DNA from: a virus
DNA: 64,000 bases
Virus record (IMG/VR): IMGVR_UViG_3300021389_000012
Span: 1 to 64,000 of that record
Strand: one strand, 5' to 3'
Numbering within the stretch: position 1 is the first letter of the stretch; each line of letters begins with the position of its first letter. The notes beneath the pieces were generated by a model. That model made no database searches. It was not told where the DNA came from and was given only the letters and a program-made list of their open reading frames with translations. Both the position numbers and the translations under genes were made by a program. This document shows, piece by piece, positions 3,057-47,167 of this stretch.

Positions 3057-4264
3057 TATATAATATTTCCTTTACCTGTAGTAAATGTTTCTTCTACACC
3101 ACTAACTCCTTGCCATGGATGTTTTTCTGGTACTCTACTTGCTACACTAGTTTTTACATTAGTATTTGCTACTTGATTTTGTACTGCAATCTTTTGTGCT
3201 TGGGTATTAACCGGTGGTCCATTCATATCTATTCTAGAACCTACAGAAATTATGTTTCCAGTAACGTTTAAATTATAGTCTGTGTCTGCATGTGAGTTTA
3301 TATCTAATGCACTATAAATATCAATAGTACCTACTGTTGTTTCTAGTTTTATTCCATCACCACCAGAACTTTTTATATTAACTCCAATTTCAGCTTGCAT
3401 ATTAATACTGCCTTTAGCATGTACATTGTAATCACCTTCAGTATGCATACTGATACCTGCTTTACTGTAAACATCTATGTGTCCAGCTAAATCCATTTCA
3501 ATCCACGCATCGCCTGATTGATTTGTAATGAAAACAAAACCATTACTATCGTCCATTAAAATTTGTGCGCCGCTTTTAGTTCTTAATCTAATATTGTTAC
3601 TAGCGCCACTATTATCACCATCGTCCATCGACAGTACATGTCCTTGACGTGTTGTAATACCAAATACTTTACTTGGCGATTCTCTTCTAGCACTACTTTG
3701 ACTGTGTCCTCTAACATAGTCTAAACTTAAACCTTGCTGATTTAACACTGATTGAAAATACTCATCAAGTGGTTTAGTGTCTGCATCATTTGTATCTTTG
3801 GGATTTTTTTCTACTGCTGGTCCGCAAGAAGTGCCGTCATCTGTATATACTTGTCCACTTGCTCTGCCGCCCATCATTGCATTTCTGTCTTTAGCAATTA
3901 ATGATCCCATTACAATACCTTGTTCAATACTACCAGTGTATGCTACTACAACATTTGTTCCTACCTCTGGCGGTTGTGGCCACAATCCATAACTTGCTGG
4001 TGCTTGTGCTTCTTTTTTCTCATCATTACCACTATCTTGAATTTTACTATGTCCACCATAAGGTGTAGCGAGTAAGCAAATTCTGTCTGATGTCTTAGCA
4101 CCAAATTCAGATATGCGTACAGATATTCTACCTGTATATAAACTATCAGCGTTATCAATAACTTCTCCAACATATATTCCACTTAGGTTATTAATACCTG
4201 CTTCGTTGCTTTGTTTGGCTATACCTGATACTTTAACGCCTGTATGTTTTATTAAGCCTGCCAT
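3056..4264 (-). CDS. gp5: Baseplate hub/spike protein, gp5/VgrG-like (OB-fold plus beta-helix)
   Basis: GIYVGEVIDNAD..TGRISVRI, SYGLWPQPPEVGTNVVVAY, GHVLSMDDG, beta-repeat C-terminus. Confidence 0.75.
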   Translation of the reverse strand: MAGLIKHTGVKVSGIAKQSNEAGINNLSGIYVGEVIDNADSLYTGRISVRISEFGAKTSDRICLLATPYGGHSKIQDSGNDEKKEAQAPASYGLWPQPPEVGTNVVVAYTGSIEQGIVMGSLIAKDRNAMMGGRASGQVYTDDGTSCGPAVEKNPKDTNDADTKPLDEYFQSVLNQQGLSLDYVRGHSQSSARRESPSKVFGITTRQGHVLSMDDGDNSGASNNIRLRTKSGAQILMDDSNGFVFITNQSGDAWIEMDLAGHIDVYSKAGISMHTEGDYNVHAKGSINMQAEIGVNIKSSGGDGIKLETTVGTIDIYSALDINSHADTDYNLNVTGNIISVGSRIDMNGPPVNTQAQKIAVQNQVANTNVKTSVASRVPEKHPWQGVSGVEETFTTGKGNII

Positions 4265-4265
4265 A

Positions 4266-6689
4266 TTATACTCCTGATAGTTCTATTATTTTTGGTAACA
4301 ACAAAGCTGTGTTTGAATTAACATCTTTGTATCCGTTTAATGTTTGGGTGAATCTTCCACCTTGAAATCTACTTTCTATTGTAACTAATTTATATAATCC
4401 TGAACTGATTGGATCAATTTCACCTTTGATTTGTTCTTCTAATAACCTATCAGGGTTTGGATTAAATTGTAAAAAACTTATAAATGCATCTTGTTTAGCA
4501 TAATCTTTTGTCTCAAGTTTTCCTTGTACTACAGCTTGCATGTTACCTAGCCAATGCGGATCACCTTTAATTTCCATAGTAAATTGATATGCATCACGTT
4601 CACGCTTAGCCATATCTTGTACCCTACGTGCAAGAGCAGATTGTGTTTCGTCTAAGTACTCAGTTACTTGTGCTTTTTCTCCAGAGTCTGCTTTTGCTAC
4701 GCCTCCAACTACTGGATTAAAATAAGATGAATCCACTGATGCTTGTTTTAAATCTGATATGTATATAGATTCTGGTATTTCTGCAGGAGAAAATTGTGCT
4801 TGTCCATCAGCAGTTCTTCCTGCTAAGAATGTAGCAGAACCTGGTTGATCAAGTACAAAGAATAAGTTTTGTATATCTATTTCGTAATTTATTACTTCTG
4901 TGTTTAGTCCACTATACATATATGTGTAGCTCTTTTCAATAGGCAATGACGCAAATCTGTCTGCTTGGTGTTGAGAATCATTTAAATTTTTATTACCTTT
5001 TTCTATACTAGGAGGATACGTAGTATTATTATATGCAATCTTAATTGTATATGTAACCAATATAGGTTCTACGTTTCCGTAGTTTTCTTTCTTTTGCTGT
5101 TTTTTTATTCTAGGAGAATATTTTGTACGTGATTCGACAACTATATGTGGAGTTAATCCATACTCGTTTGCTTCAAGGACCCACTGTGTCCAGGCAGGAC
5201 AGTTATTTCTTATTGTCTTCTCAAGCCACATTGATATATTAGTTTCTCGTTCTGCAGTAATTGTATTTGTATCTGGATTGTCTACTGTCTGACCAGATCT
5301 ATTACTAGACGCTGTATCTGTTGTACCAGCATAAGGCTTTGATTCTAAATTAAAATATTTAAGTGCTCTGCCGTTGACTTTTATATTAGCAGATGGTCTT
5401 TGATCTGCTGAAGGATCAAATACTATTTTAATTTGTTTAGGGGCTTCTCTTCCTTGCTGTTTTGCAAATGGTCCCATTGCATCAAACTGTCCTTTGTTAA
5501 ATTCTTCTTCAAAGTTGTTAACAAAGTCTCCTATAGTTCTAACATTTTTAACAGTAATATCAGAATCCAATACAGTTTCTGTTTGAGCATGTTTAATGGC
5601 AGACCAGGCAATAATATTATATCTTGTTCCTTCTGGTCCTGTAGTACTTCTTATTTGATTAAACTTAATAGGGTATAAGAATACGCCATCGAATGGAACA
5701 CTTGCGGCAGTGACTGGGTCTCTGCCTAAGAATTCTAATTTTAGTATAAAGTTTTGTGAATATAAGTTAGCTGGCTTGCCAAGATTCTTGGCGGCTAATA
5801 ATACTTTATCCAACAACCTAAAGCCTAGGTTTTCAAATAAATCAAATTGAATTATGCCTGGTGTAACATTACCATGCCGTTGTCCTGGTGTTACTGTTGC
5901 AAGTGACAAAAAGTTATCTAAACTAAATTCAGTTGTTACGCCTTGTTTAGCAATAACAAATGCCTGTTTATTATTCAATACGCTATCGTCGTTTCCTATT
6001 AAATTAGGATTGTTCCAAAGTTCATTGTTCACAATATACAATGACCAACGATATGTTGGACTATCAACTGTACTCATCCAATTTGGTGTAACACTATCTG
6101 TTAATTTTGTTTGTTTACCTAATTTTTTAATTTGTGCGATATCCCACATAGTATTTTCATCATCAGTAAATCCTTGTTCTACATCTACTTGCTCTCCAAA
6201 CGGTTCGTCATTAAAATCTTTATCTTGGTCTGCAAATGTAACCTCTGATGCAGGTTTACCATTTGCCATAGCTACACCATTTGTAAGTACGCCATCTGTG
6301 TATTTTCCATCATTACCTACACTAGCGCCTTCCATTTCTGCTATTGATTTTATTAAGTCTCTAGTTAGTTGTGGATTATCTCGTAAACTGCCTAAGTCAT
6401 CATATGGACTGACACCCAAATCATTTGCTACTTTGCTTATGTATGCATCTGTGGGATTTTCACCAGGTGGTGCCCAACGACTAATAATGGCTGCTACTGA
6501 ATTATTTCCATGTTTTTCTTGACTTGTGTATAAATTCTTTGCAACTGCTCGTACACCATACTCAGGATTATCAAACTTAACAAAGCCAGCATTACTGCCA
6601 TTAGCGCCTTGCCAAGCATCGCTGCTTGTTCTAATGTTTCCTGGATTGTTGTTTCTATCCGCTAGTGTCGTGTCTGTTGCATTTGCCAT
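4266..6689 (-). CDS. Baseplate hub protein (gp27-like) with N-terminal NNPGNI lysozyme-like domain
   Basis: N-term RNNNPGNIR...GFVKFDNPEYGVRA...IISRWAPPGENPTDAYI; C-term MEIKGDPHWL...SGLYKLVTIESRFQGGRFTQTL typical of hub proteins. Confidence 0.6.
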   Translation of the reverse strand: MANATDTTLADRNNNPGNIRTSSDAWQGANGSNAGFVKFDNPEYGVRAVAKNLYTSQEKHGNNSVAAIISRWAPPGENPTDAYISKVANDLGVSPYDDLGSLRDNPQLTRDLIKSIAEMEGASVGNDGKYTDGVLTNGVAMANGKPASEVTFADQDKDFNDEPFGEQVDVEQGFTDDENTMWDIAQIKKLGKQTKLTDSVTPNWMSTVDSPTYRWSLYIVNNELWNNPNLIGNDDSVLNNKQAFVIAKQGVTTEFSLDNFLSLATVTPGQRHGNVTPGIIQFDLFENLGFRLLDKVLLAAKNLGKPANLYSQNFILKLEFLGRDPVTAASVPFDGVFLYPIKFNQIRSTTGPEGTRYNIIAWSAIKHAQTETVLDSDITVKNVRTIGDFVNNFEEEFNKGQFDAMGPFAKQQGREAPKQIKIVFDPSADQRPSANIKVNGRALKYFNLESKPYAGTTDTASSNRSGQTVDNPDTNTITAERETNISMWLEKTIRNNCPAWTQWVLEANEYGLTPHIVVESRTKYSPRIKKQQKKENYGNVEPILVTYTIKIAYNNTTYPPSIEKGNKNLNDSQHQADRFASLPIEKSYTYMYSGLNTEVINYEIDIQNLFFVLDQPGSATFLAGRTADGQAQFSPAEIPESIYISDLKQASVDSSYFNPVVGGVAKADSGEKAQVTEYLDETQSALARRVQDMAKRERDAYQFTMEIKGDPHWLGNMQAVVQGKLETKDYAKQDAFISFLQFNPNPDRLLEEQIKGEIDPISSGLYKLVTIESRFQGGRFTQTLNGYKDVNSNTALLLPKIIELSGV

Positions 6690-10309: not shown

Positions 10310-12085
10310 ATGCTAACAATTAAAAATATCACCGTAAAGAATTTTATGAGTGTGGGCAATGTCACACAGGCAGTTCACTTTGACAACGCAGGATTAACAC
10401 TTGTATTGGGTAACAACTTAGACTTAGGTGGCGATGGCTCTCGTAATGGTACAGGTAAAACTACTATTGTTAACGCACTCAGTTATGCACTATATGGTGC
10501 CGCACTTTATAATATTAAAAAAGATAATCTAGTTAACAAAACTAATAATAAAAATATGATGGTTACTGTTGACTTTGAAGTAAATGGTACACCATATAGA
10601 ATTGAGCGTGGACGTAAACCTAATATATTTAAATATCTAATCAACGATGTAGATAACAACGAAGGTATTACAGATGAGATGCAAGGCGAAGGTAGACAAA
10701 GTCAAGCAGTAATTGAACAACTACTAGGTATGAGTCATACAATGTTTAAGCACATTGTTGCACTAAACACTTACACCGATCCATTCCTAAGTATGCGAGC
10801 AAACGATCAGCGTGAAATGATTGAACAGTTGCTAGGTATTACTAAACTTAGTGAGAAGGCAGACATATTAAAAGACCTTCTTAAAGGTACTAAAGATAGA
10901 ATTACAGAAGAAACATACAGGATTAAAGGCATCGAGGATGCTAACGAACGTATTGGTAGTAGCATTAAAGATTTAGAGCGTAGACAAAAAACTTGGGCTA
11001 CTCAATTACAAGAACGCATACAAGAAAGTACTAGCGAACTATCTGCACTAGAACACATAGACATTGATGTAGAAATAACATCGCACGAAGAATTTACAAA
11101 ATTTAACGAAAAGAAGAATCAAATAGATACATTAACTGCCGAGATTGCTAGACTAACAAGTAGTGTTGAGCGTGAGAACAAGCGTTTAACTAAAGCACAA
11201 ACTGATCTAGATTCAACATTAGAACACAAATGTTATGCGTGTGGACAAGAAATACATGACGAACAACACGATAAAATTGTAATACAAAAAACAGAACTTG
11301 TAGATGAAAGTCAAAAACACATTGACGATGATAATCAATTGATTACAGAATACAATACTGCAATTGCAGACTTAGGAGAGTTAGGTACTGCACCACGCAC
11401 AGAGTATAACACATTACAAGAAGCATACAAACATCAAAGCAAAATGGATAAGTTACAAACTGCATTAAGCAATGCTAAAGAAGAAACTAATCCATACATA
11501 GAACAAATTGACAGTCTAAAAGAAACTGGCCTACAAGAAGTAAACTGGGCAGAGGTAAATAGACTTGAGGAACTAAGAGAGCATCAAGACTTTTTATTAA
11601 AACTATTAACTAACAAAGATAGTTTTATTCGTAAAAAGATTATTGAACAAAACTTGCAGTTCTTAAACACACGATTAGAATATTATATTACACGTTTAGG
11701 TTTGCCACATGAAGTACAATTTCAAAGTGACCTAACTGTAACTATTACACAACTTGGACAAGACTTAGACTTTGATAACTTGTCAAGAGGTGAGCGTAAC
11801 AGGTTAATACTTGGACTAAGTTGGAGTTTCCGTGATGTCTTTGAAAGTATGAACCACCCTATTAACTTTGTTTGTATTGACGAACTAGTTGATAGTGGAA
11901 TGGATACAATTGGTGTAGAAAGTGCATTGGGTGTATTAAAGAAGATGGAACGTGATAGACAAAAAAATATTCTACTTATCTCACATAGAGATGAGCTAGT
12001 TGGTCGTGTACAAAGTGTATTGCAAGTTACAAAAGAAAATGGCTTCACTACATTTAATACAGAGATAGAAGTAATTGATGCATAA
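10310..12085 (+). CDS. gp46: Recombination ATPase gp46 (Rad50/SbcC-like)
   Basis: KNFMSVGN, Walker A NGTGKTT, zinc hook CYAC, LSRGE signature, CIDE Walker B. Confidence 0.93.
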   Translation: MLTIKNITVKNFMSVGNVTQAVHFDNAGLTLVLGNNLDLGGDGSRNGTGKTTIVNALSYALYGAALYNIKKDNLVNKTNNKNMMVTVDFEVNGTPYRIERGRKPNIFKYLINDVDNNEGITDEMQGEGRQSQAVIEQLLGMSHTMFKHIVALNTYTDPFLSMRANDQREMIEQLLGITKLSEKADILKDLLKGTKDRITEETYRIKGIEDANERIGSSIKDLERRQKTWATQLQERIQESTSELSALEHIDIDVEITSHEEFTKFNEKKNQIDTLTAEIARLTSSVERENKRLTKAQTDLDSTLEHKCYACGQEIHDEQHDKIVIQKTELVDESQKHIDDDNQLITEYNTAIADLGELGTAPRTEYNTLQEAYKHQSKMDKLQTALSNAKEETNPYIEQIDSLKETGLQEVNWAEVNRLEELREHQDFLLKLLTNKDSFIRKKIIEQNLQFLNTRLEYYITRLGLPHEVQFQSDLTVTITQLGQDLDFDNLSRGERNRLILGLSWSFRDVFESMNHPINFVCIDELVDSGMDTIGVESALGVLKKMERDRQKNILLISHRDELVGRVQSVLQVTKENGFTTFNTEIEVIDA

Positions 12086-12245: not shown

Positions 12246-12669
12246 ATGTCCGTGGACTTACAACAATGAAGTTGTAGATGAACTTCCTGCTGACTGCGAA
12301 GGATTTGTTTATCTAATCACAAATACTACTAACAATAAGAAATACGTTGGTAAAAAACTAGCAAGATTTAAAACAACAAAGCCGCCTCTTAAAGGTAAAA
12401 AGAATAAAAGACGTGGAACAAAAGAAAGTGACTGGCAAACCTATTGGGGTTCATCAGATCATTTAAATGCAGACGTATTAACAATTGGCGAAGAAAACTT
12501 TACTAGAGAAATATTACATTATTGTCCTAGTAGAGGCGTACTAAGTTATATGGAAGCAAAAGAACAATTTGACCGTAGAGTATTAGAAACCGATGAATAC
12601 TACAACGGAATAATTAATGTAAGAGTAGGTAGTTCAAAGATTCTTACAGAACACTTAAAAAAAGGTTGA
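12217..12669 (+). CDS. Stand-alone GIY-YIG family nuclease
   Basis: GFVYLITN...KYVGKK, YWGSS, FTREIL...EAKEQF, YYNGII. Confidence 0.85.
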   Translation: MSGLKKNNGKCPWTYNNEVVDELPADCEGFVYLITNTTNNKKYVGKKLARFKTTKPPLKGKKNKRRGTKESDWQTYWGSSDHLNADVLTIGEENFTREILHYCPSRGVLSYMEAKEQFDRRVLETDEYYNGIINVRVGSSKILTEHLKKG

Positions 12670-12694
12670 CAACGCATAACTTTCTTGTTATTAT
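12666..12694 (+). promoter_or_regulatory. Sigma70-like promoter overlapping the GIY-YIG stop codon
   Basis: AAAGG-TTGACA-N17-TATTAT with TGn extended -10. Confidence 0.7.
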
Positions 12695-12840
12695 AACAAA
12701 AGTAGCGTTTTAACTTTGTTTGAAGCAAATAATTAAAGCATCAGATAATTAATAGTGTAAAACCAAAACTCACACAGACATAAAGTCAAGCAATTACTGG
12801 CACAGTTCAAACCACAATCAGGCTAATAAAAACTAACACA

Positions 12841-13165
12841 GGCTTCAAAGCTCCGATTGGTCGGCATAGGTCGACTCACCTTGAGGTTACGTAATCACGT
12901 GACTAGATACTGGTGTGCTTAATAATGTCAATACACTGATTTGACAAATCAAAAAGATCAAGCTCTACGAACGCTCGTAACTTGAGGATAGTCCAAAAGT
13001 CGATACCATGGCTTCGGATGTTTCTGCGTTAGAAAAGCAGTATGTAATAAGGGTACAGCGTAACCGCCCTTCCTAGGTGTTAAACTAGGTTTACTATGGT
13101 AATGTGGGTGCTGTTCTATGCCAAGAACTCATTTTACACTTGGCCCGTAGTAGGCTAAGTGTGAA
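12841..13165 (+). ncRNA. Large structured non-coding RNA candidate (family not recognised)
   Basis: 675-bp gap without a credible ORF; GC-richer core with nested helices 12863-69/13116-22, 12871-76/12998-13003, 13004-11/13094-101 and a 13-bp hairpin 13133-45/13153-65. Confidence 0.65.
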
Positions 13166-13344
13166 TAAAATATCTTGCCAAGTAACCATCTTATAATCAC
13201 ATAAATAATAGTAAGACATAATATTTACAATAATCACTATTAAACAAATATTAAAAGCGTAAGCAACATACAGTGAACAAAGCGTTAGCTTTGTGAAACT
13301 GATGATATCGTAGATATCAATTACATGAGAGAACAATAACACAT

Positions 13345-21752: not shown

Positions 21753-22382
21753 ATGCTTACACTTAAAGAGAACCTAACTTACGATCAAGCGAAAATCATC
21801 ACTGAGTCAGATCATGATGGTAAGAACTTGTTTATGCAAGGTATCTTTGTACAAGGTGACAAGCGTAATCAGAATAGTAGAGTTTATCCAGTTAATGAAA
21901 TTTCAAAAGCCGTTAAGGCAATACAAGAAAAAATTGAAACTGGTTATTCAGTATTAGGCGAAGCAGATCATCCAGATGATTTGCAAGTCAATTTGGACCG
22001 TGTATCTCACATGATTGAAAAAATGTGGATGGATGGTCAAGACGGTTATGGTCGTTTAAAACTATTACCTACTCCGATGGGAAATATTTGTAAAACCCTA
22101 TTAGAGAATGGAGTGAAACTTGGCGTTTCGTCAAGAGGTAGTGGTAATGTAGCAGAAAGCGGTAATGTTAGTGAGTTTGAAATTCAAACTGTTGATATTG
22201 TTGCTAACCCAAGTGCACCAGATGCCTACCCAGATCCTTTATATGAACAAATTATGAATGGTCATCGTGGTAACATCTTACTTGACGTTGCTGCAGCGGC
22301 AAAAGACGATAATGTAGCCGAAACATACCTCCAGAAGGAAGTATTAAAGTTCATTGAAAAACTAAACATTAGGAGAAGCTAG
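21753..22382 (+). CDS. gp21: Prohead protease gp21
   Basis: GIFVQGDKRNQNSRVYP, LGEADHP, LGVSSRGSG, DIVANPSAPDAY. Confidence 0.93.
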   Translation: MLTLKENLTYDQAKIITESDHDGKNLFMQGIFVQGDKRNQNSRVYPVNEISKAVKAIQEKIETGYSVLGEADHPDDLQVNLDRVSHMIEKMWMDGQDGYGRLKLLPTPMGNICKTLLENGVKLGVSSRGSGNVAESGNVSEFEIQTVDIVANPSAPDAYPDPLYEQIMNGHRGNILLDVAAAAKDDNVAETYLQKEVLKFIEKLNIRRS

Positions 22383-23480
22383 ATGGCTAATAATGCAATA
22401 GAACAACTCCTAAGTTCCGAAGTCCTTTCTGAGGAAGTGCGTTCAACACTTTCAGAAGCATGGGAAGAACGTTTAACAGAAGCTCGAGAAGAGATCACTG
22501 CTGAATTACGTGAAGAATTCGCTAACAGGTACGAAACTGATAAGACATCAATGGTGGAAGCACTAGATGCCATGGTATCAGATACGATTAATACCGAATT
22601 GAAAGAATTTGCAGCGGACAAAAAAGCGGCAGTAGAAGCTCAAGTTGAGTATAAACGTCAAATTTCGCAACATGCAGAAATACTTGATAAGTTTGTTATG
22701 GAAACGCTTAACAAGGAAATTACAGAACTACGCAAAGACAGAAAACTTCAAGAAGGTAACTTTGAGAAGTTAGAAGACTTTGTGATGGAACAACTTACTT
22801 CAGAACTTAATGAATTCCATAATGACAAGAAAGACCTTATTGAACAGAAGGTAAAACTTGTCGCGGAAGGTAAAGAAATGATCACTAAAGCTAAAGAAGA
22901 CTTTATAAACAAAGCTTCAGGTAAACTAGCTAGTATTGTTGACACAACATTGTCAACAGAATTAGGTACGTTGAAAGAAGATATTAAGCAAGCAAAAGAA
23001 AATATGTTTGGACGTAAACTGTTCGAAACTTTTGCAGCTGAGTTTATGAGTTCACATATAGCTGAAGGAACACATATTTCTAAACTTTCAAAAGAACTTT
23101 CAGATGCGAAGATTCAAATTGAAGAATCGCAAAAAGAAATTGCAGATAGAGAGGCAAAAATTATTATAGAAACTAATAAAGTTACTAAAATTAATGAAAG
23201 CCGTGAGCGTGAGTCAGTTATGACTGAACTTATGTCTCCACTATCTAAAGATAAGCGTGAGTTAATGAACAACTTACTTGAAAGCGTAAGCACAAGTAAA
23301 CTTAAAGCTCAATTCAACAAATACTTACCAACAGTATTAAACGAATCAAGCACAGTTAAATCACAAAAACTAACAGAATCACAGAAGACTGTGATTACCG
23401 GTAACAAGGCAAGCACTACTCAGGAAACTGAAAGCGAAGCCGAAATTATTAACCTTAAAAAGTTAGCAGGAATCAACTAA
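22383..23480 (+). CDS. gp22: Prohead scaffold protein gp22-like
   Basis: Coiled-coil acidic protein between protease and MCP; ends IINLKKLAGIN. Confidence 0.85.
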   Translation: MANNAIEQLLSSEVLSEEVRSTLSEAWEERLTEAREEITAELREEFANRYETDKTSMVEALDAMVSDTINTELKEFAADKKAAVEAQVEYKRQISQHAEILDKFVMETLNKEITELRKDRKLQEGNFEKLEDFVMEQLTSELNEFHNDKKDLIEQKVKLVAEGKEMITKAKEDFINKASGKLASIVDTTLSTELGTLKEDIKQAKENMFGRKLFETFAAEFMSSHIAEGTHISKLSKELSDAKIQIEESQKEIADREAKIIIETNKVTKINESRERESVMTELMSPLSKDKRELMNNLLESVSTSKLKAQFNKYLPTVLNESSTVKSQKLTESQKTVITGNKASTTQETESEAEIINLKKLAGIN

Positions 23481-23492
23481 GGAGAATTCCAA

Positions 23493-24665
23493 ATGACACA
23501 GAATCTATTTGAAAATTGGGACGTAACAAAAGACGCCCTTACAGATGGCTTAGAAGGTAACAAAAAAGTTGTAATGGAGAGCGTTCTTGAGAATACTAAG
23601 AGCTATCTTTCAGAATCAGCTGCAGCTGGCTCAACTATGGCAGGTAACGTTGCATCACTTAACAAAGTGATTCTTCCAGTTATTCGTCGTGTTATGCCAA
23701 CAGTTATCGCAAACGAACTAGTAGGCGTACAGCCTATGACTGGTCCAGTAGGACAAATTCACACACTACGTGTAAGATATGGCCAAACAGCAGCTGGTGT
23801 TACAGCTGGTGACGAAGCACTATCACCTTTCGCAATTGCAAAAGGTTACTCAGGTGACGCATCAAACGGTACGGCAACTTCAACTTCTTCAATGGAAGCA
23901 GAAGCTGGTAAGAAACTTTCAATCCAAGTATTGAAACAAACTGTTGAAGCGAAAACACGTAAACTATCAGCACGTTGGACTTTTGAAGCGGCACAAGATG
24001 CTAATTCAATGCACGGTCTAGATGTTGAAGCAGAAATCATGCAAGCACTTGCACAAGAGATTACTGCTGAAATCGATCAAGAAGTGATCGGTTCACTACG
24101 TACACTTGCTGGAACGGCAACTGATACGTTTGATCAGGCAGCAATTGCAACAGCTCACCCAGGACATACTTTTGTCGGTGATACGCATGCGGCGTTGGCA
24201 GTTCTTATTAACAGATCAGCTAACTTAATTGCAGCACGTACACGTCGTGGCGCAGGTAACTACGTGGTGATTTCACCAACTATGTTAACTGTACTACAAA
24301 GTGCAACAACTTCAGCGTTCGCAAGAACAACTGAAGGTCCATTTGAAGCTCCAACTAACACTAAATTTGTTGGTACTTTAAACGGCACTATGCGTGTTTT
24401 TGTTGACCAGTACGCGGCGGATAACGCTCCTGTACTAGTTGGCTACAAAGGCGACGGTGAAATTGATGCGGCAGCTTTCTATTGCCCATACATCCCACTA
24501 ATGTCTTCAGGCACAGTACTTGATCCATCAACTTTCGAGCCAACAGTATCATTTATGACACGTTATGGCTATGTAGAGCTAAACAACCAGGCTTCATCTC
24601 TTGGTAACGCAGCTGACTACCTAAGCAAAATTGATGTAACAGCAGCTAACCTTTCTTTTGCATAA
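23493..24665 (+). CDS. gp23: Major capsid protein gp23
   Basis: LVGVQPMTGPVGQI, VEAKTRKLSARWTFEAAQD, AFYCPYIPL, FMTRYG. Confidence 0.96.
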   Translation: MTQNLFENWDVTKDALTDGLEGNKKVVMESVLENTKSYLSESAAAGSTMAGNVASLNKVILPVIRRVMPTVIANELVGVQPMTGPVGQIHTLRVRYGQTAAGVTAGDEALSPFAIAKGYSGDASNGTATSTSSMEAEAGKKLSIQVLKQTVEAKTRKLSARWTFEAAQDANSMHGLDVEAEIMQALAQEITAEIDQEVIGSLRTLAGTATDTFDQAAIATAHPGHTFVGDTHAALAVLINRSANLIAARTRRGAGNYVVISPTMLTVLQSATTSAFARTTEGPFEAPTNTKFVGTLNGTMRVFVDQYAADNAPVLVGYKGDGEIDAAAFYCPYIPLMSSGTVLDPSTFEPTVSFMTRYGYVELNNQASSLGNAADYLSKIDVTAANLSFA

Positions 24666-24689
24666 TATTTGCAAATAAAAAGTTACACT

Positions 24690-24720
24690 AAAATAGGGCC
24701 TTTAGGGGCCCTATTTTTTT
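24690..24720 (+). terminator. Rho-independent terminator after MCP
   Basis: aaaatagggcc...ggccctatttt plus T run. Confidence 0.85.
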
Positions 24721-24726
24721 CACTCA

Positions 24727-24772
24727 CGTTCATCCTATTATAGGACGGAAGTAGCAATAGCGAAGGAACGCA
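24727..24772 (+). promoter_or_regulatory. Glutamine riboswitch (glnA RNA motif / glutamine-I class)
   Basis: CGTTC-A-TCCTA tta TAGGA-C-GGAAGTA-GC aata GC-GAA-G-GAACG-CA: P1, P2, E-loop and P3 arrangement of the glnA motif, 24 nt upstream of an ATG with SD. Confidence 0.8.
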
Positions 24773-24796
24773 CTTAACTGTAAAAAGGAGAGTGTT

Positions 24797-24949
24797 ATGA
24801 ATCACAGAGACTTCGAACTAGCTCGTAAAAAAGAGCGTACAAAACGATCACACAAAGCAATTCACAAGAAACAACTGCAAAGACCTTTGTCTAGACCACG
24901 TGCTGACAAGAATATACTAAGTTCAGACCCTAGATTACAGAAAATTTAA
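24797..24949 (+). CDS. 50-aa basic peptide downstream of the riboswitch (not in ORF track)
   Basis: AAGGAG SD; MNHRDFELARKKERTKRSHKAIHKKQLQRPLSRPRADKNILSSDPRLQKI. Confidence 0.75.
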   Translation: MNHRDFELARKKERTKRSHKAIHKKQLQRPLSRPRADKNILSSDPRLQKI

Positions 24950-24968
24950 TTTTTTTTAAAAAAAAAGG

Positions 24969-24997
24969 TTGACCTTTATGCAAAAACGTTGTATATT
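24969..24997 (+). promoter_or_regulatory. Sigma70-like promoter for the ncRNA
   Basis: AAAGG-TTGACC-N17-TATATT. Confidence 0.75.
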
Positions 24998-25003
24998 AAG
25001 TAT

Positions 25004-25220
25004 ATAAGCAACAAAGAGTTTAGCGGCTCAATGTTTATAGTGCAAGGAAGAGGCGTTACCTAGGCGTCGAACTTGACTGCTCAGGGGTTATACCCAGGCT
25101 TTACATGGAAAACATGGGGAGTCACATTGCGGATACGCAGGAGTAGGTGGTAGTGTAAATAGAAAAGGTATCTAGATGTGCTACTTGGAGGTGTACCCCA
25201 GTCCTCCCTATTTTGCTTAT
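25004..25220 (+). ncRNA. ~217-nt structured ncRNA candidate
   Basis: Starts at the expected TSS; ends pair (ATAAGCAA/TTGCTTAT); several internal hairpins; followed by a terminator; no plus-strand ORF in the track. Confidence 0.75.
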
Positions 25221-25223
25221 TCT

Positions 25224-25250
25224 AAAAAGACGCTTCGGCGTCTTTTTCTT
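25224..25250 (+). terminator. Rho-independent terminator (UUCG loop)
   Basis: aaaaagacgc-ttcg-gcgtcttttt. Confidence 0.88.
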
Positions 25251-25330
25251 TGAGCAGCCAAAAAAGGTTTGTCTTTGATAAATACATATATAATAAATAA
25301 CATATAAGGAAGTAGTAGGAAGAAAGCATT

Positions 25331-25933
25331 ATGTCATCACACATTAACCCAGACTCTGGAACATTAGTTGTAGAAAGCACTAACGCATTAGACGTTACAG
25401 CATCACCTGTAGATCCTGTTGGCGCAGCTCTACATGTTAAAGGCGGAACATACACAGAACATAATTTGTATGTTGGTGGAACATTACTTGTAAACGGAGA
25501 TGTTATCTCGTTAGGTAATGGAAACGCATCTATTACAATTAATGCAAATGTTAGCAGTGATGTACTACCAAACGTAGCATCAGGTATACAATATAATTTA
25601 GGTAGTAACGGTAATCCGTGGAATAAAGCATACTTACAGAAAATAGTAATAACAACTACATCAGTAACTAATTCATCAACCCTCAATACAACAGGTTTAG
25701 TATATATAAACTCAAGTACAAGTCTTGCATTGGCTTTGGCAAATGGGACAGAAGGTGAGAAAAAATCATTAGTTGTTACTACATCACTACCTAGCACAGT
25801 AGTTATAACTCCAGATACTTTTGTAAACGGTACAAGCGTGTCATTTACAACAATAGGACAAAGTATTGAGTTAATATATACAAGTGCTGGATGGGCTATT
25901 ACTTCTAGTTTTGGAAATCCTAGCGTAAGCTAG
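25331..25933 (+). CDS. Virion structural protein (beta-rich, fibre/decoration-like)
   Basis: Thr/Ser/Gly-rich; late promoter ATAAATA at 25278. Confidence 0.55.
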   Translation: MSSHINPDSGTLVVESTNALDVTASPVDPVGAALHVKGGTYTEHNLYVGGTLLVNGDVISLGNGNASITINANVSSDVLPNVASGIQYNLGSNGNPWNKAYLQKIVITTTSVTNSSTLNTTGLVYINSSTSLALALANGTEGEKKSLVVTTSLPSTVVITPDTFVNGTSVSFTTIGQSIELIYTSAGWAITSSFGNPSVS

Positions 25934-25992
25934 TATTCTAAGACATTAAATACAAAAACGCAAGAGCGAAGCGAAATTGTGAGGAATAGAAG

Positions 25993-28900
25993 TTGGCTAT
26001 AAATATAAACCATCAGGCAGATAAAATTAAATCTGAATCTGACCTAATACTAGATGCAGGATCAACCAGCAACATTGATGTTTCAACGAAAATTGTTAAA
26101 AATGCATCAGACCCAGTAGATCAACAAGACCTTGTAACAAAAGCATACTTTGAAGCAAACAGTGGTAGCAATGCTATTGACTTAACATTAGGTGTAAGTT
26201 CGGATAGTAGTTGGACAGATGGTGCAATTGAAGGATGGCTAAGCAGTACAACAGTTGGTGATGCTATTGATGACATTAATGAAGCACTACTAAATGTACA
26301 AAATAATACTTTTGTTAAAGGTATTGATTTTACAGCTGACGTTGTTACAGGTGGCGCAGGACTAACTTCTACTCTTACTATTACCGCTGACGGAAATCCA
26401 AACAGATATACTATTAATTGGGGTGATGGCAACTCAACAACTGCAACAACAGATTCAACTCCAACTCATACTTACGCAACTAATACAGGAAGCCCGTTTG
26501 ATGTAACAGTAACAGCATTTAATAATACTGGTGCAGGAACAGGTTCAACTTCTACTAAATTAAGAGAAGATTACATAACAATTTTTACAGGCGATCCAGC
26601 AGTTTCATTTGTAGTATACGATGCGCCAACTGGCGGCAACGCAATTACATATTGGGATGATGGCGATACTGTCTATTTTGAAAATACAACAACTAACACA
26701 TCAGGAGCAGTAATTCAATACACATGGGATTGGAGCGATGGTTCCGCAGATGATGTTATTAATAGCGATAGTGTAGCAGGCGGTGTAGGCGGAGGACGAT
26801 TGTCTCATACGTTTGCTCTTAGTACAGAAGCAGAAGTACAAAGAACCGTTACACTAACATTAGACAGTCATAGCACAGCTACGCCATCAATACTCCCATT
26901 AGACGATGATGCTTCATATAAAATTTACGATGATCATACACCTGATACTACTTCAAATATTACAACAGGTATTAATGAAGAATCAAATGCAGGACTAACA
27001 GTAACATTTACTAACAACACTGAAAATACTATAGGAAGTTACAGTACATACGGAACAACTTATAGATGGGACTTTGGTGATGGAACAATTACAACAGTAA
27101 ATGCAGGCAGTAATCAAAGTGGTGATACTGGACAAACAATAACGCACAAATACACACTTTCAAATAATAGCACGCCAGCAGATTATACAGGTAACTTACA
27201 AGTTTTAAGTAATCACACAAGCAGTCCATTTACAAGTTCAGATTTTACAATTCATGTAGAACCAGATGTTAGAGCAAACATCTCAGGTAGTGCAGATACA
27301 GTTTCAGATCGCAATAGCGATGACATATATGATGTATATGACGGCGTAGATTATAACGGCGTAAACAGAGCATTAGTTACTGTAAGTAACACAAGTGAAA
27401 ATGGTGACAATCATGAATACGATTGGAACGATGGCAGTGCTAATGATAATGAAGCAGGACTAAACAGTGTACAACATGACTTTACAGGAGTAACACCAGG
27501 CAACTATCAATTAGATTTTACTGCAACAGGTACTCCAGATATAACTGCTCAAACAGATTCGGCCAACTTAACTTTTCAAGTTAATGCAGTGCCAAACGCA
27601 CCGGGTGGATTAAGTACAAAAACAATTACACTTACTGATTCCACACAGGGTATTGATCCTAAACTAGCTAATAACTTTACTGACAATAGTGCAACGTCAC
27701 CAGTGATTGCTGGAGCAAGTTTAAACACAAATACCGAAAGACGATATACTAGCGGTAACCTTGACACCAGCATTGCACAAAATGTGTATAATGGTTTAAG
27801 TGGTACTGCAACAGCAATTGTTAACGGTTCGGCAGATGGATCAAAGACGTTTACTACTTCCTTAAATGAAAACGGTACCTTTGATAGTTTAGTAATTAGC
27901 GATCAACGTGATGCAAATGATAGTATAAGTTCTACAACTTACCCCACTGGATTTTATCAAACATTTGACGCAAAAATTACTAAACCATTTGCTGAATACT
28001 CAACAGGTGTTAATGATCAAAGAATAGAGCACAATGCAACAGGAAATACTAACTACGTAACAGTTATTTGTGATGACTTAACTAGCGTTCCTACTATTGA
28101 CTTAGCAAGTGCTACTTTGACAGAAAGCACCGCAGGTAGTTACAGATATATTTCTGGAATTCCTTACTACAACACAGGAAACCCACAACTTACACTAAGT
28201 GGTGCATCGCTTTCTAACTGGATTGGTCAAGCATATAGAGATACAAGCAATGTATTTGAAATTGCTAATGGTACCAATTCAGAAAGCACAAGTGGTGCTA
28301 CTATTAGTACACAGTATAAAGGGTATTCAGACCTAGAAGCAGTTTCTTATTTAACAGCAGGTATACCAAATGCTAATACTGGATTTGGTTCATCATATGC
28401 ATTAGCAGACCAAACAATTAACGTTACTACAAGTAGTGTTAAAGCAGTCGAAACGCTTAAATTTAAAGCGAATAATGTAAATGGTAGCTCAAACTATACA
28501 GAACTAACAAACACCGCTGTACAGGTGCATACTGCTAATCCTACGGGTGTTTTAGAGGATGATATACCAGTAGCAAGTGGATTAGGTAACGGTGTAATTA
28601 CTGATGACGGAATTCGTATTGCTGACTTTATATCTTCTACTACAGATAATCCAGCAATATCAAGTTCTACTAATTATACTTCTACACCATTCACTGGTGC
28701 AATTAGTGTAAGTGGAACACAAGAAGCAACTGTACGTTGGGGTATATTAAAACATGATACTACTGATTATTCTACTGGATTTTTACCAGTAGGTCCTGAT
28801 AGAAGCTCAGATACCGGAACACAGTATTTTACTTTTGCTTTCCGTAGACAAGTTGTTGCTAACTTTAATATCAGTATAAACAGTACGGGTATTGCAGGAC

Positions 28901-45894: not shown

Positions 45895-47167
45895 AACAAA
45901 GCGTAAGCAACCTAGAAGACCATCTGAAAGAATTAGAGCTAATCAACTAAAAGATCCTAGTTGGGAAGGCGCAGACGGATGGTCTGGCAAAGAGTATCAT
46001 CATGCTCGACAAGCCGCAACTGATTATTATTACAGAAATTATAAAACTTCTGTTCTTATTGATTATGCTTGGGATTGGATGCTTGCTAATGGTTATAATA
46101 AAAAAGATATAAAATGCGTCAAAGCAGCCAAAGCCGGAGCCATTAATGCAACTACAGGATATTACTGTCGTATGCTTACAATGGGTTGCCCAGATCAGCA
46201 TTTGGCCTGGAATGCATATTGGGAAAGTCTACCCGGCACAATGGGTACTCCAACTTCAATCAGTGAATTTATTAATAAAACAGTTAAACAAGCAATTGAA
46301 GATGGCAAAGAACATGTAGAAGAAGCAGAGCGTTTAGCAGAAGCAGAAGCAAAAAGAAATGCTAGACCAAAGCCAACTATACAACAACTACTACATGCAG
46401 CCGCATTGCAAATGACTAATGAAATAGAAGACTTTCTAGAACAATGGGTAGTTAGCGGATATGATCCAAAACTTGTAAAAGATTTTAAGCCAGATGCATT
46501 ATTGCGTAGAGCATCGGCTAAACAGGCACATGTAAGAATTATTCGTAATATATACAAAGACAATGTTGTAGAGTTTACTGAGCTTGCTAAAAAAGTTAAA
46601 AAAGAAAACAAAGACGATATGCGTTTGCAGTTGGAAGAAGGATATGAACACATGTCCACTGCACAACAAAAAGGTGCATTAGAATTATATCGTAAAATTA
46701 CAGATGCATGTGATATTGTAGAGGCAGAAAGCAAAGCAGGTCGTAAGCCACGCAAAACACGTATAAAGAGCCCAGAAGACATTGTTAAGAAGCTCAAATT
46801 TAAGCAAACAGACGCCGAATACGGTTTAGGTAGCATAACACCAGCAGAAATCGTTTACGCCCGTATACTGGTGGTTTTTAACACTAAAAACCGTAAGGTT
46901 GGATTGTATTATGCTAAGAATGTAGACCCTATGGGATTAAAACGAGAAGGTAGTGGGCTAAGTGTTAAAGGAACTACCATAACAGGATATGATGAAGAAA
47001 AGAGTTTACAACGCACAATTCGTAAGCCACAAGAATTTCTACCAGAACTTAAAAAAGCCACAAGAGCCAAAACAGAAAAGTTGTTTGAAACACTAAAAAC
47101 AACTGAAACTAAGTTAAATGGACGTATTAATGGAGAGACTATCTTATTAGCCGCCTTTAATAAGTGA
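45881..47167 (+). CDS. Hypothetical protein of a type common in large T4-like phages
   Basis: C-term VFNTKNRKVG...GLSVKGTTI...RTIRKP...NGRIN..TILL; start placed at ATG 45881 (GGAGA SD). Confidence 0.7.
   Translation: MAMPRTKRKQPRRPSERIRANQLKDPSWEGADGWSGKEYHHARQAATDYYYRNYKTSVLIDYAWDWMLANGYNKKDIKCVKAAKAGAINATTGYYCRMLTMGCPDQHLAWNAYWESLPGTMGTPTSISEFINKTVKQAIEDGKEHVEEAERLAEAEAKRNARPKPTIQQLLHAAALQMTNEIEDFLEQWVVSGYDPKLVKDFKPDALLRRASAKQAHVRIIRNIYKDNVVEFTELAKKVKKENKDDMRLQLEEGYEHMSTAQQKGALELYRKITDACDIVEAESKAGRKPRKTRIKSPEDIVKKLKFKQTDAEYGLGSITPAEIVYARILVVFNTKNRKVGLYYAKNVDPMGLKREGSGLSVKGTTITGYDEEKSLQRTIRKPQEFLPELKKATRAKTEKLFETLKTTETKLNGRINGETILLAAFNK

What the first reader, a model, noticed from the sequence alone, without database searches (positions are those of the whole stretch)
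24969..25250. Self-contained ~217-nt ncRNA gene inside the structural operon
Seen: a complete transcription unit. Promoter TTGACC-N17-TATATT puts the TSS at about 25004, exactly where ATAAGCAA begins, and this pairs perfectly with TTGCTTAT (25213-20) just before a UUCG terminator. Internal stems include GGGT/ACCC, CATG/CATG, TGCG-gata-CGCA, TGACT/AGTCA, GGTAGTGTA/TGTGCTACT and GGAGG/CCTCC, and loop ACCCC could pair with upstream GGGGT. No coding frame is apparent. Inference: a trans-acting phage RNA made by host RNAP. The size and 3' TTGGAGGT...TCCTCCC hairpin loosely recall the manA motif of marine phages, but I cannot confirm this; a 6S-like or Y-RNA-like decoy is also possible.
Basis: partly seen in the sequence, partly recalled or inferred. 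Interest (0 to 1): 0.7.

Follow-up and report, generated by a model that had tools for sequence, protein, structure and literature searches.

The report
Free-standing manA-family phage RNA gene
The flagged stretch is a real gene for a folded RNA of about 217 bases in an uncultured marine giant phage; it is a divergent copy of the catalogued "manA" RNA, and here it is laid out as a separate RNA product, not as a switch for the next gene.

Summary
Window 24969-25250 contains a sigma-70-type promoter, a ~217-nt structured RNA (25004-25220) and an intrinsic terminator.

It is not a new class. Searched alone, the RNA matches Rfam manA (RF01745) over the whole model at 38.6 bits (E 7e-9). That is below the 55.2-bit cut-off, so whole-window scans missed it. 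Alignable homologues, including the copy in Pelagibacter phage Mosig (64 bits), pass the cut-off.

At least 120 IMG/VR contigs carry the same subfamily. On 38 representatives, 97.3% of cells pair and 35 of 56 pairs show compensatory changes.

The layout argues for a free RNA here:
- All 82 distinct upstream sequences carry the promoter at a fixed distance.
- 69 of 102 loci have a terminator 2-8 nt after the fold, in 33 different sequences with no anti-terminator signal.
- The next gene has its own late-type promoter motif.
- In two relatives the next gene is convergent.

A Mosig-like subgroup lacks the terminator and sits just upstream of gp32, rubrerythrin or peroxiredoxin genes.

Loops L5 and L7 covary. 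A 2026 cryo-EM preprint reports these as the contacts that build manA cages in vitro.

The function in infection is unknown. The scan has reached the same reading several times on other DNA.

The parts
24969..24997 (+). Sigma-70-type promoter: -35 TTGACC (24969-24974), 17-nt spacer, -10 TATATT (24992-24997). The inferred start is near 25004.
   Evidence: 10 of 12 positions. All 82 distinct upstream sequences of homologues have TTGNNN-N16-18-TANNNT ending 37-41 nt before the TAGTGC motif.
25004..25220 (+). manA-family RNA (Rfam RF01745, sub-threshold). The outer helix 25004-25011/25213-25220 encloses the whole fold.
   Evidence: 38.6 bits, E 7.4e-9, model positions 1-192 on 25012-25217; 70.9% identity to the Mosig copy, which scores 64 bits. 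Covariation.
25010..25035 (+). First hairpin (Rfam P1)
   Evidence: Helix 2: 6 of 7 pairs have compensatory changes.
25037..25040 (+). 5' strand of the closing stem ATAG. It pairs with CTAT at 25208-25211 and closes the four-way junction.
   Evidence: helix 3: 100% paired; column 40/220 shows AU, GC, CG, UA and GU.
25043..25075 (+). P3: CAAG/CTTG with an internal loop, GGCG/CGTC, and loop L3 (TTACCTAG)
   Evidence: helices 4 and 5.
25077..25146 (+). P4 domain. P4 is 25077-25082/25141-25146. It encloses P5 (GGG/CCC, loop L5 GTTATA at 25087-25092), P6 (25097-25123, GAAAA loop) and P7 (TGCG 25128-31 / CGCA 25136-39, loop L7 GATA at 25132-35).
   Evidence: helices 6-9. L5-L7 covariation.
25149..25185 (+). 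P8: GGTAGTGTA/TGTGCTACT, inner TAGA/TCTA, loop L8 AAAGGTA (25164-25170)
   Evidence: helix 10: 4 of 4 pairs compensatory. The inner stem was read from the alignment.
25187..25207 (+). P9: GGAGG/CCTCC with the 11-nt loop L9 TGTACCCCAGT
   Evidence: helix 11.
25224..25251 (+). Intrinsic terminator: AAAAAGACGC-TTCG-GCGTCTTTTT, then CTTT
   Evidence: 69 of 102 homologous loci have a hairpin plus T run at the same place. There are 33 distinct sequences, and the mean stem probability is 0.95.
25277..25284 (+). GATAAATA, a T4-type late-promoter-like motif for the next gene (25331-25933). It lies outside the RNA unit.
   Evidence: 14 sites against 5.4 expected, mostly just upstream of ORF starts.

Best explanation
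This is a divergent member of the manA RNA family (RF01745). It lies in a marine giant T4-like myophage, between the major capsid gene and the fibre genes.

Inferred mechanism:
- Host RNA polymerase starts at the conserved sigma-70-type promoter, at about 25004.
- It transcribes the ~217-nt fold: an outer helix, one hairpin, and a closing stem around a four-way junction of P3, P4 (carrying P5, P6 and P7), P8 and P9.
- It stops at the intrinsic terminator, releasing a free RNA of about 245 nt.

So in this phage the RNA is most likely the product itself, not a leader that controls the next gene. The most likely mode of action is self-association through loop-loop pairing, L5 with L7 of a neighbouring copy, as reported for manA RNAs in vitro. 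What such a particle would do during infection is unknown.

Shown: family membership, the fold, the conserved promoter, the terminators and the L5-L7 covariation.
Inferred: the transcript ends, action in trans, and assembly in cells.
For: Family:
- Full-length manA match at 38.6 bits, E 7.4e-9.
- Homologues score 56-64 bits, above the cut-off. Other contigs of the clade score 44.7-49.8 bits, one copy each.

Fold:
- 97.3% of cells pair, against 79.3% in shuffles and 34-52% when partners are slid.
- 35 of 56 pairs have compensatory changes; 0 of 500 shuffles reach any measure.

Stand-alone layout:
- The promoter is present in 82 of 82 distinct upstream sequences at a fixed distance.
- A terminator follows the fold within 2-8 nt in 69 of 102 loci.
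- There are 33 different terminator sequences. Predicted stem probability is about 0.95 in the full transcript. The 5' arms are not complementary to the fold (mean z -0.57).
- The next gene has its own late-type motif, GATAAATA, which is enriched before ORFs.
- In L095 and L096 the next gene is real and convergent (phrog_29758 at 3.5e-131; a tail-fibre-like gene).
- Downstream genes are very diverse.

Assembly contacts:
- L7 position 4 pairs with L5 position 3 as A-U in 16 sequences and C-G in 34, 100% paired. Two further positions also switch.
- This matches the L5-L7' kissing loop of the cryo-EM preprint 10.64898/2026.07.01.735769.
Against: - The window copy is below Rfam's cut-off.
- A Mosig-like subgroup of about 30 loci has no terminator. 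It lies 13-87 nt upstream of a co-oriented gene (gp32, rubrerythrin or peroxiredoxin), which is what a leader looks like.
- 79 of 98 nearest called downstream ORFs are co-oriented. This crude ORF call includes spurious small ORFs.
- Weinberg 2010 rates manA as cis-regulatory.
- One metatranscriptome contig runs through promoter, RNA and terminator (24766-25478), so a discrete transcript is not shown.
- In the window itself L5-L7 would form only 3 pairs.
- Assembly is known only in vitro, at high RNA and Mg2+ concentrations, and for other family members.
- The match between my helix numbers and the preprint's is inferred, because its figures are not held.
Confidence: 0.6

Rival explanations
1. 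It is a cis-regulatory riboswitch or attenuator, as manA is catalogued. The fold would sense a ligand or protein and set how much transcription from the early promoter reads through the terminator into the downstream structural genes.
For: - Weinberg 2010 rated manA cis-regulatory 'Y' and riboswitch 'y'.
- A co-oriented gene lies 110 nt downstream.
- An aptamer followed by a terminator is the usual riboswitch layout.
- The subgroup without a terminator sits directly before genes.
Against: - The terminator does not overlap the fold.
- No alternative pairing is conserved across 33 terminator sequences.
- The next gene has its own late-type promoter motif.
- Convergent genes follow the RNA in L095 and L096.
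- The associated genes share no common pathway.
Confidence: 0.22
2. It is a protein-binding decoy or scaffold RNA (6S-like, Y-RNA-like or tRNA-like). It would titrate a host or phage protein early in infection.
For: Early-type promoter, free-standing layout, and very strongly conserved junction nucleotides.
Against: - No Rfam match to 6S or Y-RNA families at E up to 10.
- The fold is a branched junction, not a rod with a central bubble.
- No protein gene is consistently linked to it.
Confidence: 0.12
3. It is a chance fold, or an unannotated small protein gene.
For: The single-sequence z-score is only -2.45.
Against: - At least 120 homologous contigs.
- Compensatory changes in 35 of 56 pairs.
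- No conserved frame.
Confidence: 0.01

Closest known systems
manA RNA motif (Rfam RF01745; Weinberg et al. 2010, PMC2864571)
   Same: - The helix plan is identical: a hairpin, a closing stem, and a four-way junction with a three-hairpin sub-domain.
- The alignment to the model is full-length.
- The source is a marine T4-like phage.
- Some relatives sit before mannose-isomerase/cytidylyltransferase genes (L003).
   Different: - It scores below the family cut-off (38.6 against 55.2 bits).
- It is an AT-rich variant.
- An extra outer helix encloses the first hairpin.
- It is bounded by its own promoter and terminator, not placed in a 5' UTR.
- The host is a phage of about 360 kb, not a cyanophage.
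manA assemblies by cryo-EM (Ren et al., bioRxiv 10.64898/2026.07.01.735769)
   Same: - The same set of hairpin loops is present (L3, L5-L9).
- L6 is GNRA-like.
- L5 and L7 are complementary and covary.
- L8 (GGUA) can pair with L9 (UACC) or with L3 (UACCU).
   Different: - The preprint studied other family members, in vitro only.
- In the window L5-L7 is only 3 pairs.
- No assembly data exist for this subfamily.
ROOL and GOLLD large phage-associated RNAs
   Same: From my own knowledge, not tested here: these are free-standing, ornate phage or prophage RNAs of unknown function that are reported to form RNA-only multimers.
   Different: They are unrelated in sequence and several times longer. 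No Rfam match to them was found here.

Membership tests
manA RNA (RF01745) | Covariance-model score at or above the gathering cut-off (55.2 bits) | tested here: not met
   The window copy scores 38.6 bits, E 7.4e-9, over model positions 1-192. Whole-window and own-genome searches gave no hit.
manA RNA (RF01745) | Homology to sequences that pass the cut-off | tested here: met
   The window copy is 70.9% identical to the Mosig copy, which scores 64 bits. L111, L036 and L010 score 56-57 bits. All align in one 238-column alignment.
manA RNA (RF01745) | Helix plan of the family consensus, kept by covariation | tested here: met
   The helices of the model alignment match the independently derived RNAalifold structure. 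97.3% of cells pair and 35 of 56 pairs are compensatory.
manA RNA (RF01745) | Position in the 5' UTR of a gene (cis-regulatory class) | tested here: inconclusive
   In the window, a terminator and a separate late-type motif lie between the RNA and the next gene. L095 and L096 have convergent genes. The Mosig-like subgroup is leader-like.
manA RNA (RF01745) | Self-assembly through L5-L7' and other loop contacts | not testable with these tools
   Only sequence support is available: L5-L7 covariation. L8-L9 and L3-L8 are complementary, but their covariation is ambiguous.
6S RNA | Rod-like helix with a large central bubble; match to the 6S models | tested here: not met
   No 6S match at E up to 10. 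The fold is a branched junction.
Y RNA / YrlA | Match to the Y-RNA models; a Ro/Rsr gene in the genome | tested here: not met
   No Rfam match. The presence of an Rsr gene was not tested.

The most novel reading that the evidence does not exclude
manA RNAs of marine T4-like and giant phages are not riboswitches. They are free, early-made RNAs that assemble in the infected cell into RNA-only oligomers or cages. Natural covariation between L5 and L7 would then show that selection acts on the inter-subunit contact.
Probability: 0.3. Interest if true: 0.75.

Novelty: new member of a known kind. Interest (0 to 1): 0.3.

Why it matters
manA has been an orphan 'riboswitch candidate' since 2010. A clade of at least 120 marine phage contigs carries it as a promoter-RNA-terminator cassette that the Rfam cut-off largely misses. 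That layout, together with covariation in the loops used for cage building in vitro, shifts the odds toward a free, self-associating RNA. It also gives simple tests: end mapping, native gels, and compensatory loop mutants. For this window alone the result is an annotation. The scan has already reached the same reading on other DNA.

Tried and rejected
- **Rfam searches that missed the RNA.** Rfam at the gathering threshold on the whole window found only the glutamine riboswitch. Rfam at E up to 10 on 801 nt gave no manA hit, probably because of the filters. The genome search with RF01745 on the window's own record also found nothing.
- **Pseudoknots.** A blind scan for extra helices was too noisy once G-U pairs were allowed. 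Only the closing stem ATAG/CTAT came out of it.
- **L3-L8 and L8-L9 contacts.** Both are complementary, but covariation is mixed. The U-to-C change in L8 of L010, L086 and L091 is uncompensated. One compensatory event is seen for L8-L9 in L025 and L038.
- **RNA-seq.** Only assembled contigs were available.
  - In X10, contigs lie only inside 25023-25207.
  - An X12 contig stops at 25204.
  - An X1 contig spans 24766-25478.
  - This gives no evidence either way on the transcript ends.
- **Cellular genomes.** 16 of 18 exact matches to the 17-mer were chance hits without the rest of the fold.
- **Literature.** A search for cyanophage start-site maps mentioning this RNA found nothing useful. The pelagimyophage and Melnitz papers do not mention it.
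- **Antiterminator test for the window.** My script picked an over-long hairpin for the window row, so that row is void.

Full report
**1. What is in the sequence**

- Window 24969-24997 holds TTGACC-N17-TATATT. It matches 10 of 12 positions and is the best sigma-70-like site in 22000-28000.
- Seven bases after the -10 hexamer, ATAAGCAA (25004-25011) begins. It pairs with TTGCTTAT (25213-25220).
- Four bases later comes AAAAAGACGC-TTCG-GCGTCTTTTT (25224-25247), followed by CTTT.
- The 247-nt transcript folds at -78.3 kcal/mol (z -2.45), with the terminator and the main fold both intact.
- No credible reading frame exists. No tRNA or tmRNA is called.

**2. Relatives**

- BLAST against phage records found one homologue of the RNA itself. 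It lies in an unannotated gap of Pelagibacter phage Mosig, with 70.9% identity over window 24990-25216.
- I aligned thirty-eight representatives that are under 93% identical to each other. RNAalifold predicted 52 pairs, 34 of them with compensatory changes.
- After adding the closing stem ATAG/CTAT (25037-40/25208-11), the formal count was as follows:
  - 97.3% of cells pair, against 79.3% in shuffles and 34-52% when partners are slid.
  - 35 of 56 pairs show double changes.
  - 0 of 500 shuffles reach any measure.
- The fold is:
  - an outer helix;
  - one hairpin;
  - a closing stem around a four-way junction of P3, P4, P8 and P9;
  - P4 itself carries P5, P6 and P7.

**3. Identity**

- Rfam at the gathering threshold on the whole window found only a glutamine riboswitch next door.
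- Scanning twelve homologous loci gave manA (RF01745) above the 55.2-bit cut-off in four of them: Mosig 64, L111 57.4, L036 57 and L010 56.4 bits, each over the full model.
- Searched alone, the window copy scores 38.6 bits (E 7.4e-9) over model positions 1-192 on 25012-25217. The helices are the same as those I had derived independently.
- Large contigs of the clade score 44.7-49.8 bits and carry one copy each. Melnitz has none.
- So this is a divergent manA clade that the Rfam cut-off mostly misses. It is not a new class.

**4. What is known about manA**

- Weinberg et al. 2010 describe manA as marine or cyanophage, usually in potential 5' UTRs of varied genes. They rate it cis-regulatory and a probable riboswitch.
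- A July 2026 preprint reports cryo-EM structures in which manA RNAs form RNA-only octamers, decamers and a 60-subunit icosahedral cage.
- These are built from pentamers held together by different contact sets:
  - L5-L7' and L8-L9' kissing loops in manA_A0F1;
  - L6-P6', L5-L7' and L3-L8' in manA_pho34_A767.
- The loops named there are exactly the hairpin loops of the Rfam plan, and L6 is GNRA-like here too. I therefore take the helix numbering to be the same. This is an inference, because the preprint's figures are not held.

**5. Leader or free RNA?**

Evidence for a free RNA:
- All 82 distinct upstream sequences carry TTGNNN-N16-18-TANNNT:
  - the -35 is TTGAC in 72;
  - the -10 is TATATT, TATAAT or TATAGT in 75;
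  - the spacer is 17 nt in 62;
  - the -10 ends 37-41 nt before the core motif in 78 of 82, so transcription should start at the outer helix.
- 69 of 102 loci with enough flank have a hairpin plus T run 2-8 nt after the fold.
- Among 46 distinct transcripts there are 33 different terminator sequences. Their stems are predicted to form with probability about 0.95. Their 5' arms are not complementary to the fold (mean z -0.57). I therefore see no anti-terminator.
- In the window, the next gene (25331-25933) is preceded by GATAAATA at 25277. This motif occurs 14 times against 5.4 expected, and mostly lies just upstream of ORF starts, like a T4-type late promoter.
- In L095 and L096 the gene after the RNA is convergent and real (phrog_29758 at 3.5e-131; a tail-fibre-like gene).
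- Neighbouring genes are very diverse:
  - upstream: the capsid gene or a 50-aa peptide;
  - downstream: gp32, rubrerythrin, peroxiredoxin, cytidylyltransferase plus mannose-6-phosphate-isomerase C-terminal domain, a TonB-dependent receptor, a radical-SAM protein, and unknowns.

Evidence for a leader:
- A Mosig-like subgroup of about 30 loci has no terminator. It lies 13-87 nt upstream of a co-oriented gene.

RNA data:
- Metatranscriptome data were available only as contigs and do not settle the transcript ends.

**6. Assembly contacts**

- Among the 50 distinct sequences with a tetraloop L7, L7 position 4 pairs with L5 position 3 as A-U in 16 and C-G in 34, so 100% are paired.
- Position 3/4 switches between C-G and U-A. 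Position 2/5 switches between A-U and G-C.
- The observed combinations are GGUA/UACC, UAU/AUA (the window), UGC/GCA and UGU(C)/(G)ACA.
- L5 does not covary with L3, even though the two are complementary in the main group.
- L8 (GGUA) can pair with L9 (UACC) or with L3 (UACCU) in the window. Covariation for these contacts is ambiguous.

**7. Genome context**

- The record is 76.5 kb and is estimated to be 21% complete, which implies a genome of about 360 kb. Related contigs imply similar sizes.
- The capsid protein is closest (67%) to those of Vibrio phage 2.275.O, Sinorhizobium phage Phosso and Pseudomonas phage PA5oct-like giant phages.
- The gene order is prohead protease, a phrog_10922 protein, major capsid protein, glutamine riboswitch plus 50-aa ORF, the manA RNA, and then fibre-like genes.

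**8. Verdict**

- The RNA gene is real and ordinary in kind: a new, sub-threshold member of a known family.
- The layout favours a free RNA product over a switch for the next gene.
- Earlier follow-ups of this scan reached the same reading on other DNA. I saw those notes only after reaching it myself.

Noticed in passing
window 24725-24949: A glutamine riboswitch (RF01739, 55.1 bits) lies directly before a 50-aa Lys/Arg-rich ORF (24797-24949) with no Pfam or PHROG match. The same small ORF family lies just upstream of manA in about 20 related loci. The riboswitch part shows very high depth in marine RNA contigs, probably from many organisms.
   Followed up: partly
window, 14 sites, e.g. 18871, 25277, 34945, 47174, 53754, 56289: GATAAATA occurs 14 times against 5.4 expected. 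It mostly lies 20-55 nt upstream of ORF starts on the coding strand, so it is a likely late-promoter motif of this phage.
   Followed up: partly
whole window / G000: The record is estimated to be 21% complete at 76.5 kb, so the genome is about 360 kb. The capsid protein is closest (67%) to giant phages of Vibrio, Sinorhizobium and Pseudomonas (PA5oct), not to Kyanoviridae.
   Followed up: partly
L143 and L144 (PBPT01000082.1, 153 kb; PBPT01000016.1, 335 kb): Two contigs binned in a Tara Red Sea 'Candidatus Neomarinimicrobiota' MAG carry the same protease, capsid and manA order (capsid 74% identical). They share a 3.3-kb stretch at 99.97% identity in opposite orientation. They are probably giant-phage contigs binned with the MAG, which gives at most a weak host hint.
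   Followed up: partly
L111 3960-4507; L049 6823-6909: RNA elements cluster here. In L111 a glutamine riboswitch, manA and a freshwater-2 RNA (RF02980) lie within 550 nt. L049 also has a freshwater-2 RNA downstream of manA.
   Followed up: no
L001, L013, L025, L036, L101, L115: Permuted (alpha- or beta-type) tmRNA genes lie within a few kb of manA in the Mosig-like contigs.
   Followed up: no
L095 about 5560-5640; L101 about 11990-12070 (rough, read off the printout): A long hairpin with the shared inner sequence CCATATTTTTACTCACTTTCAT and a T run follows manA in both loci. It is a conserved element of unknown kind.
   Followed up: no
L002 (Melnitz MZ577097.1) 3586-4074: The annotated 'SsrA' tmRNA feature (45984-46436) overlaps the 5' half of the stretch (46399-46472) that matches the window's glutamine riboswitch region. 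The annotation may merge two RNAs.
   Followed up: no
window 12666-13189: Earlier first-reader notes flag another promoter-led structured RNA behind a GIY-YIG-like gene. I did not examine it.
   Followed up: no
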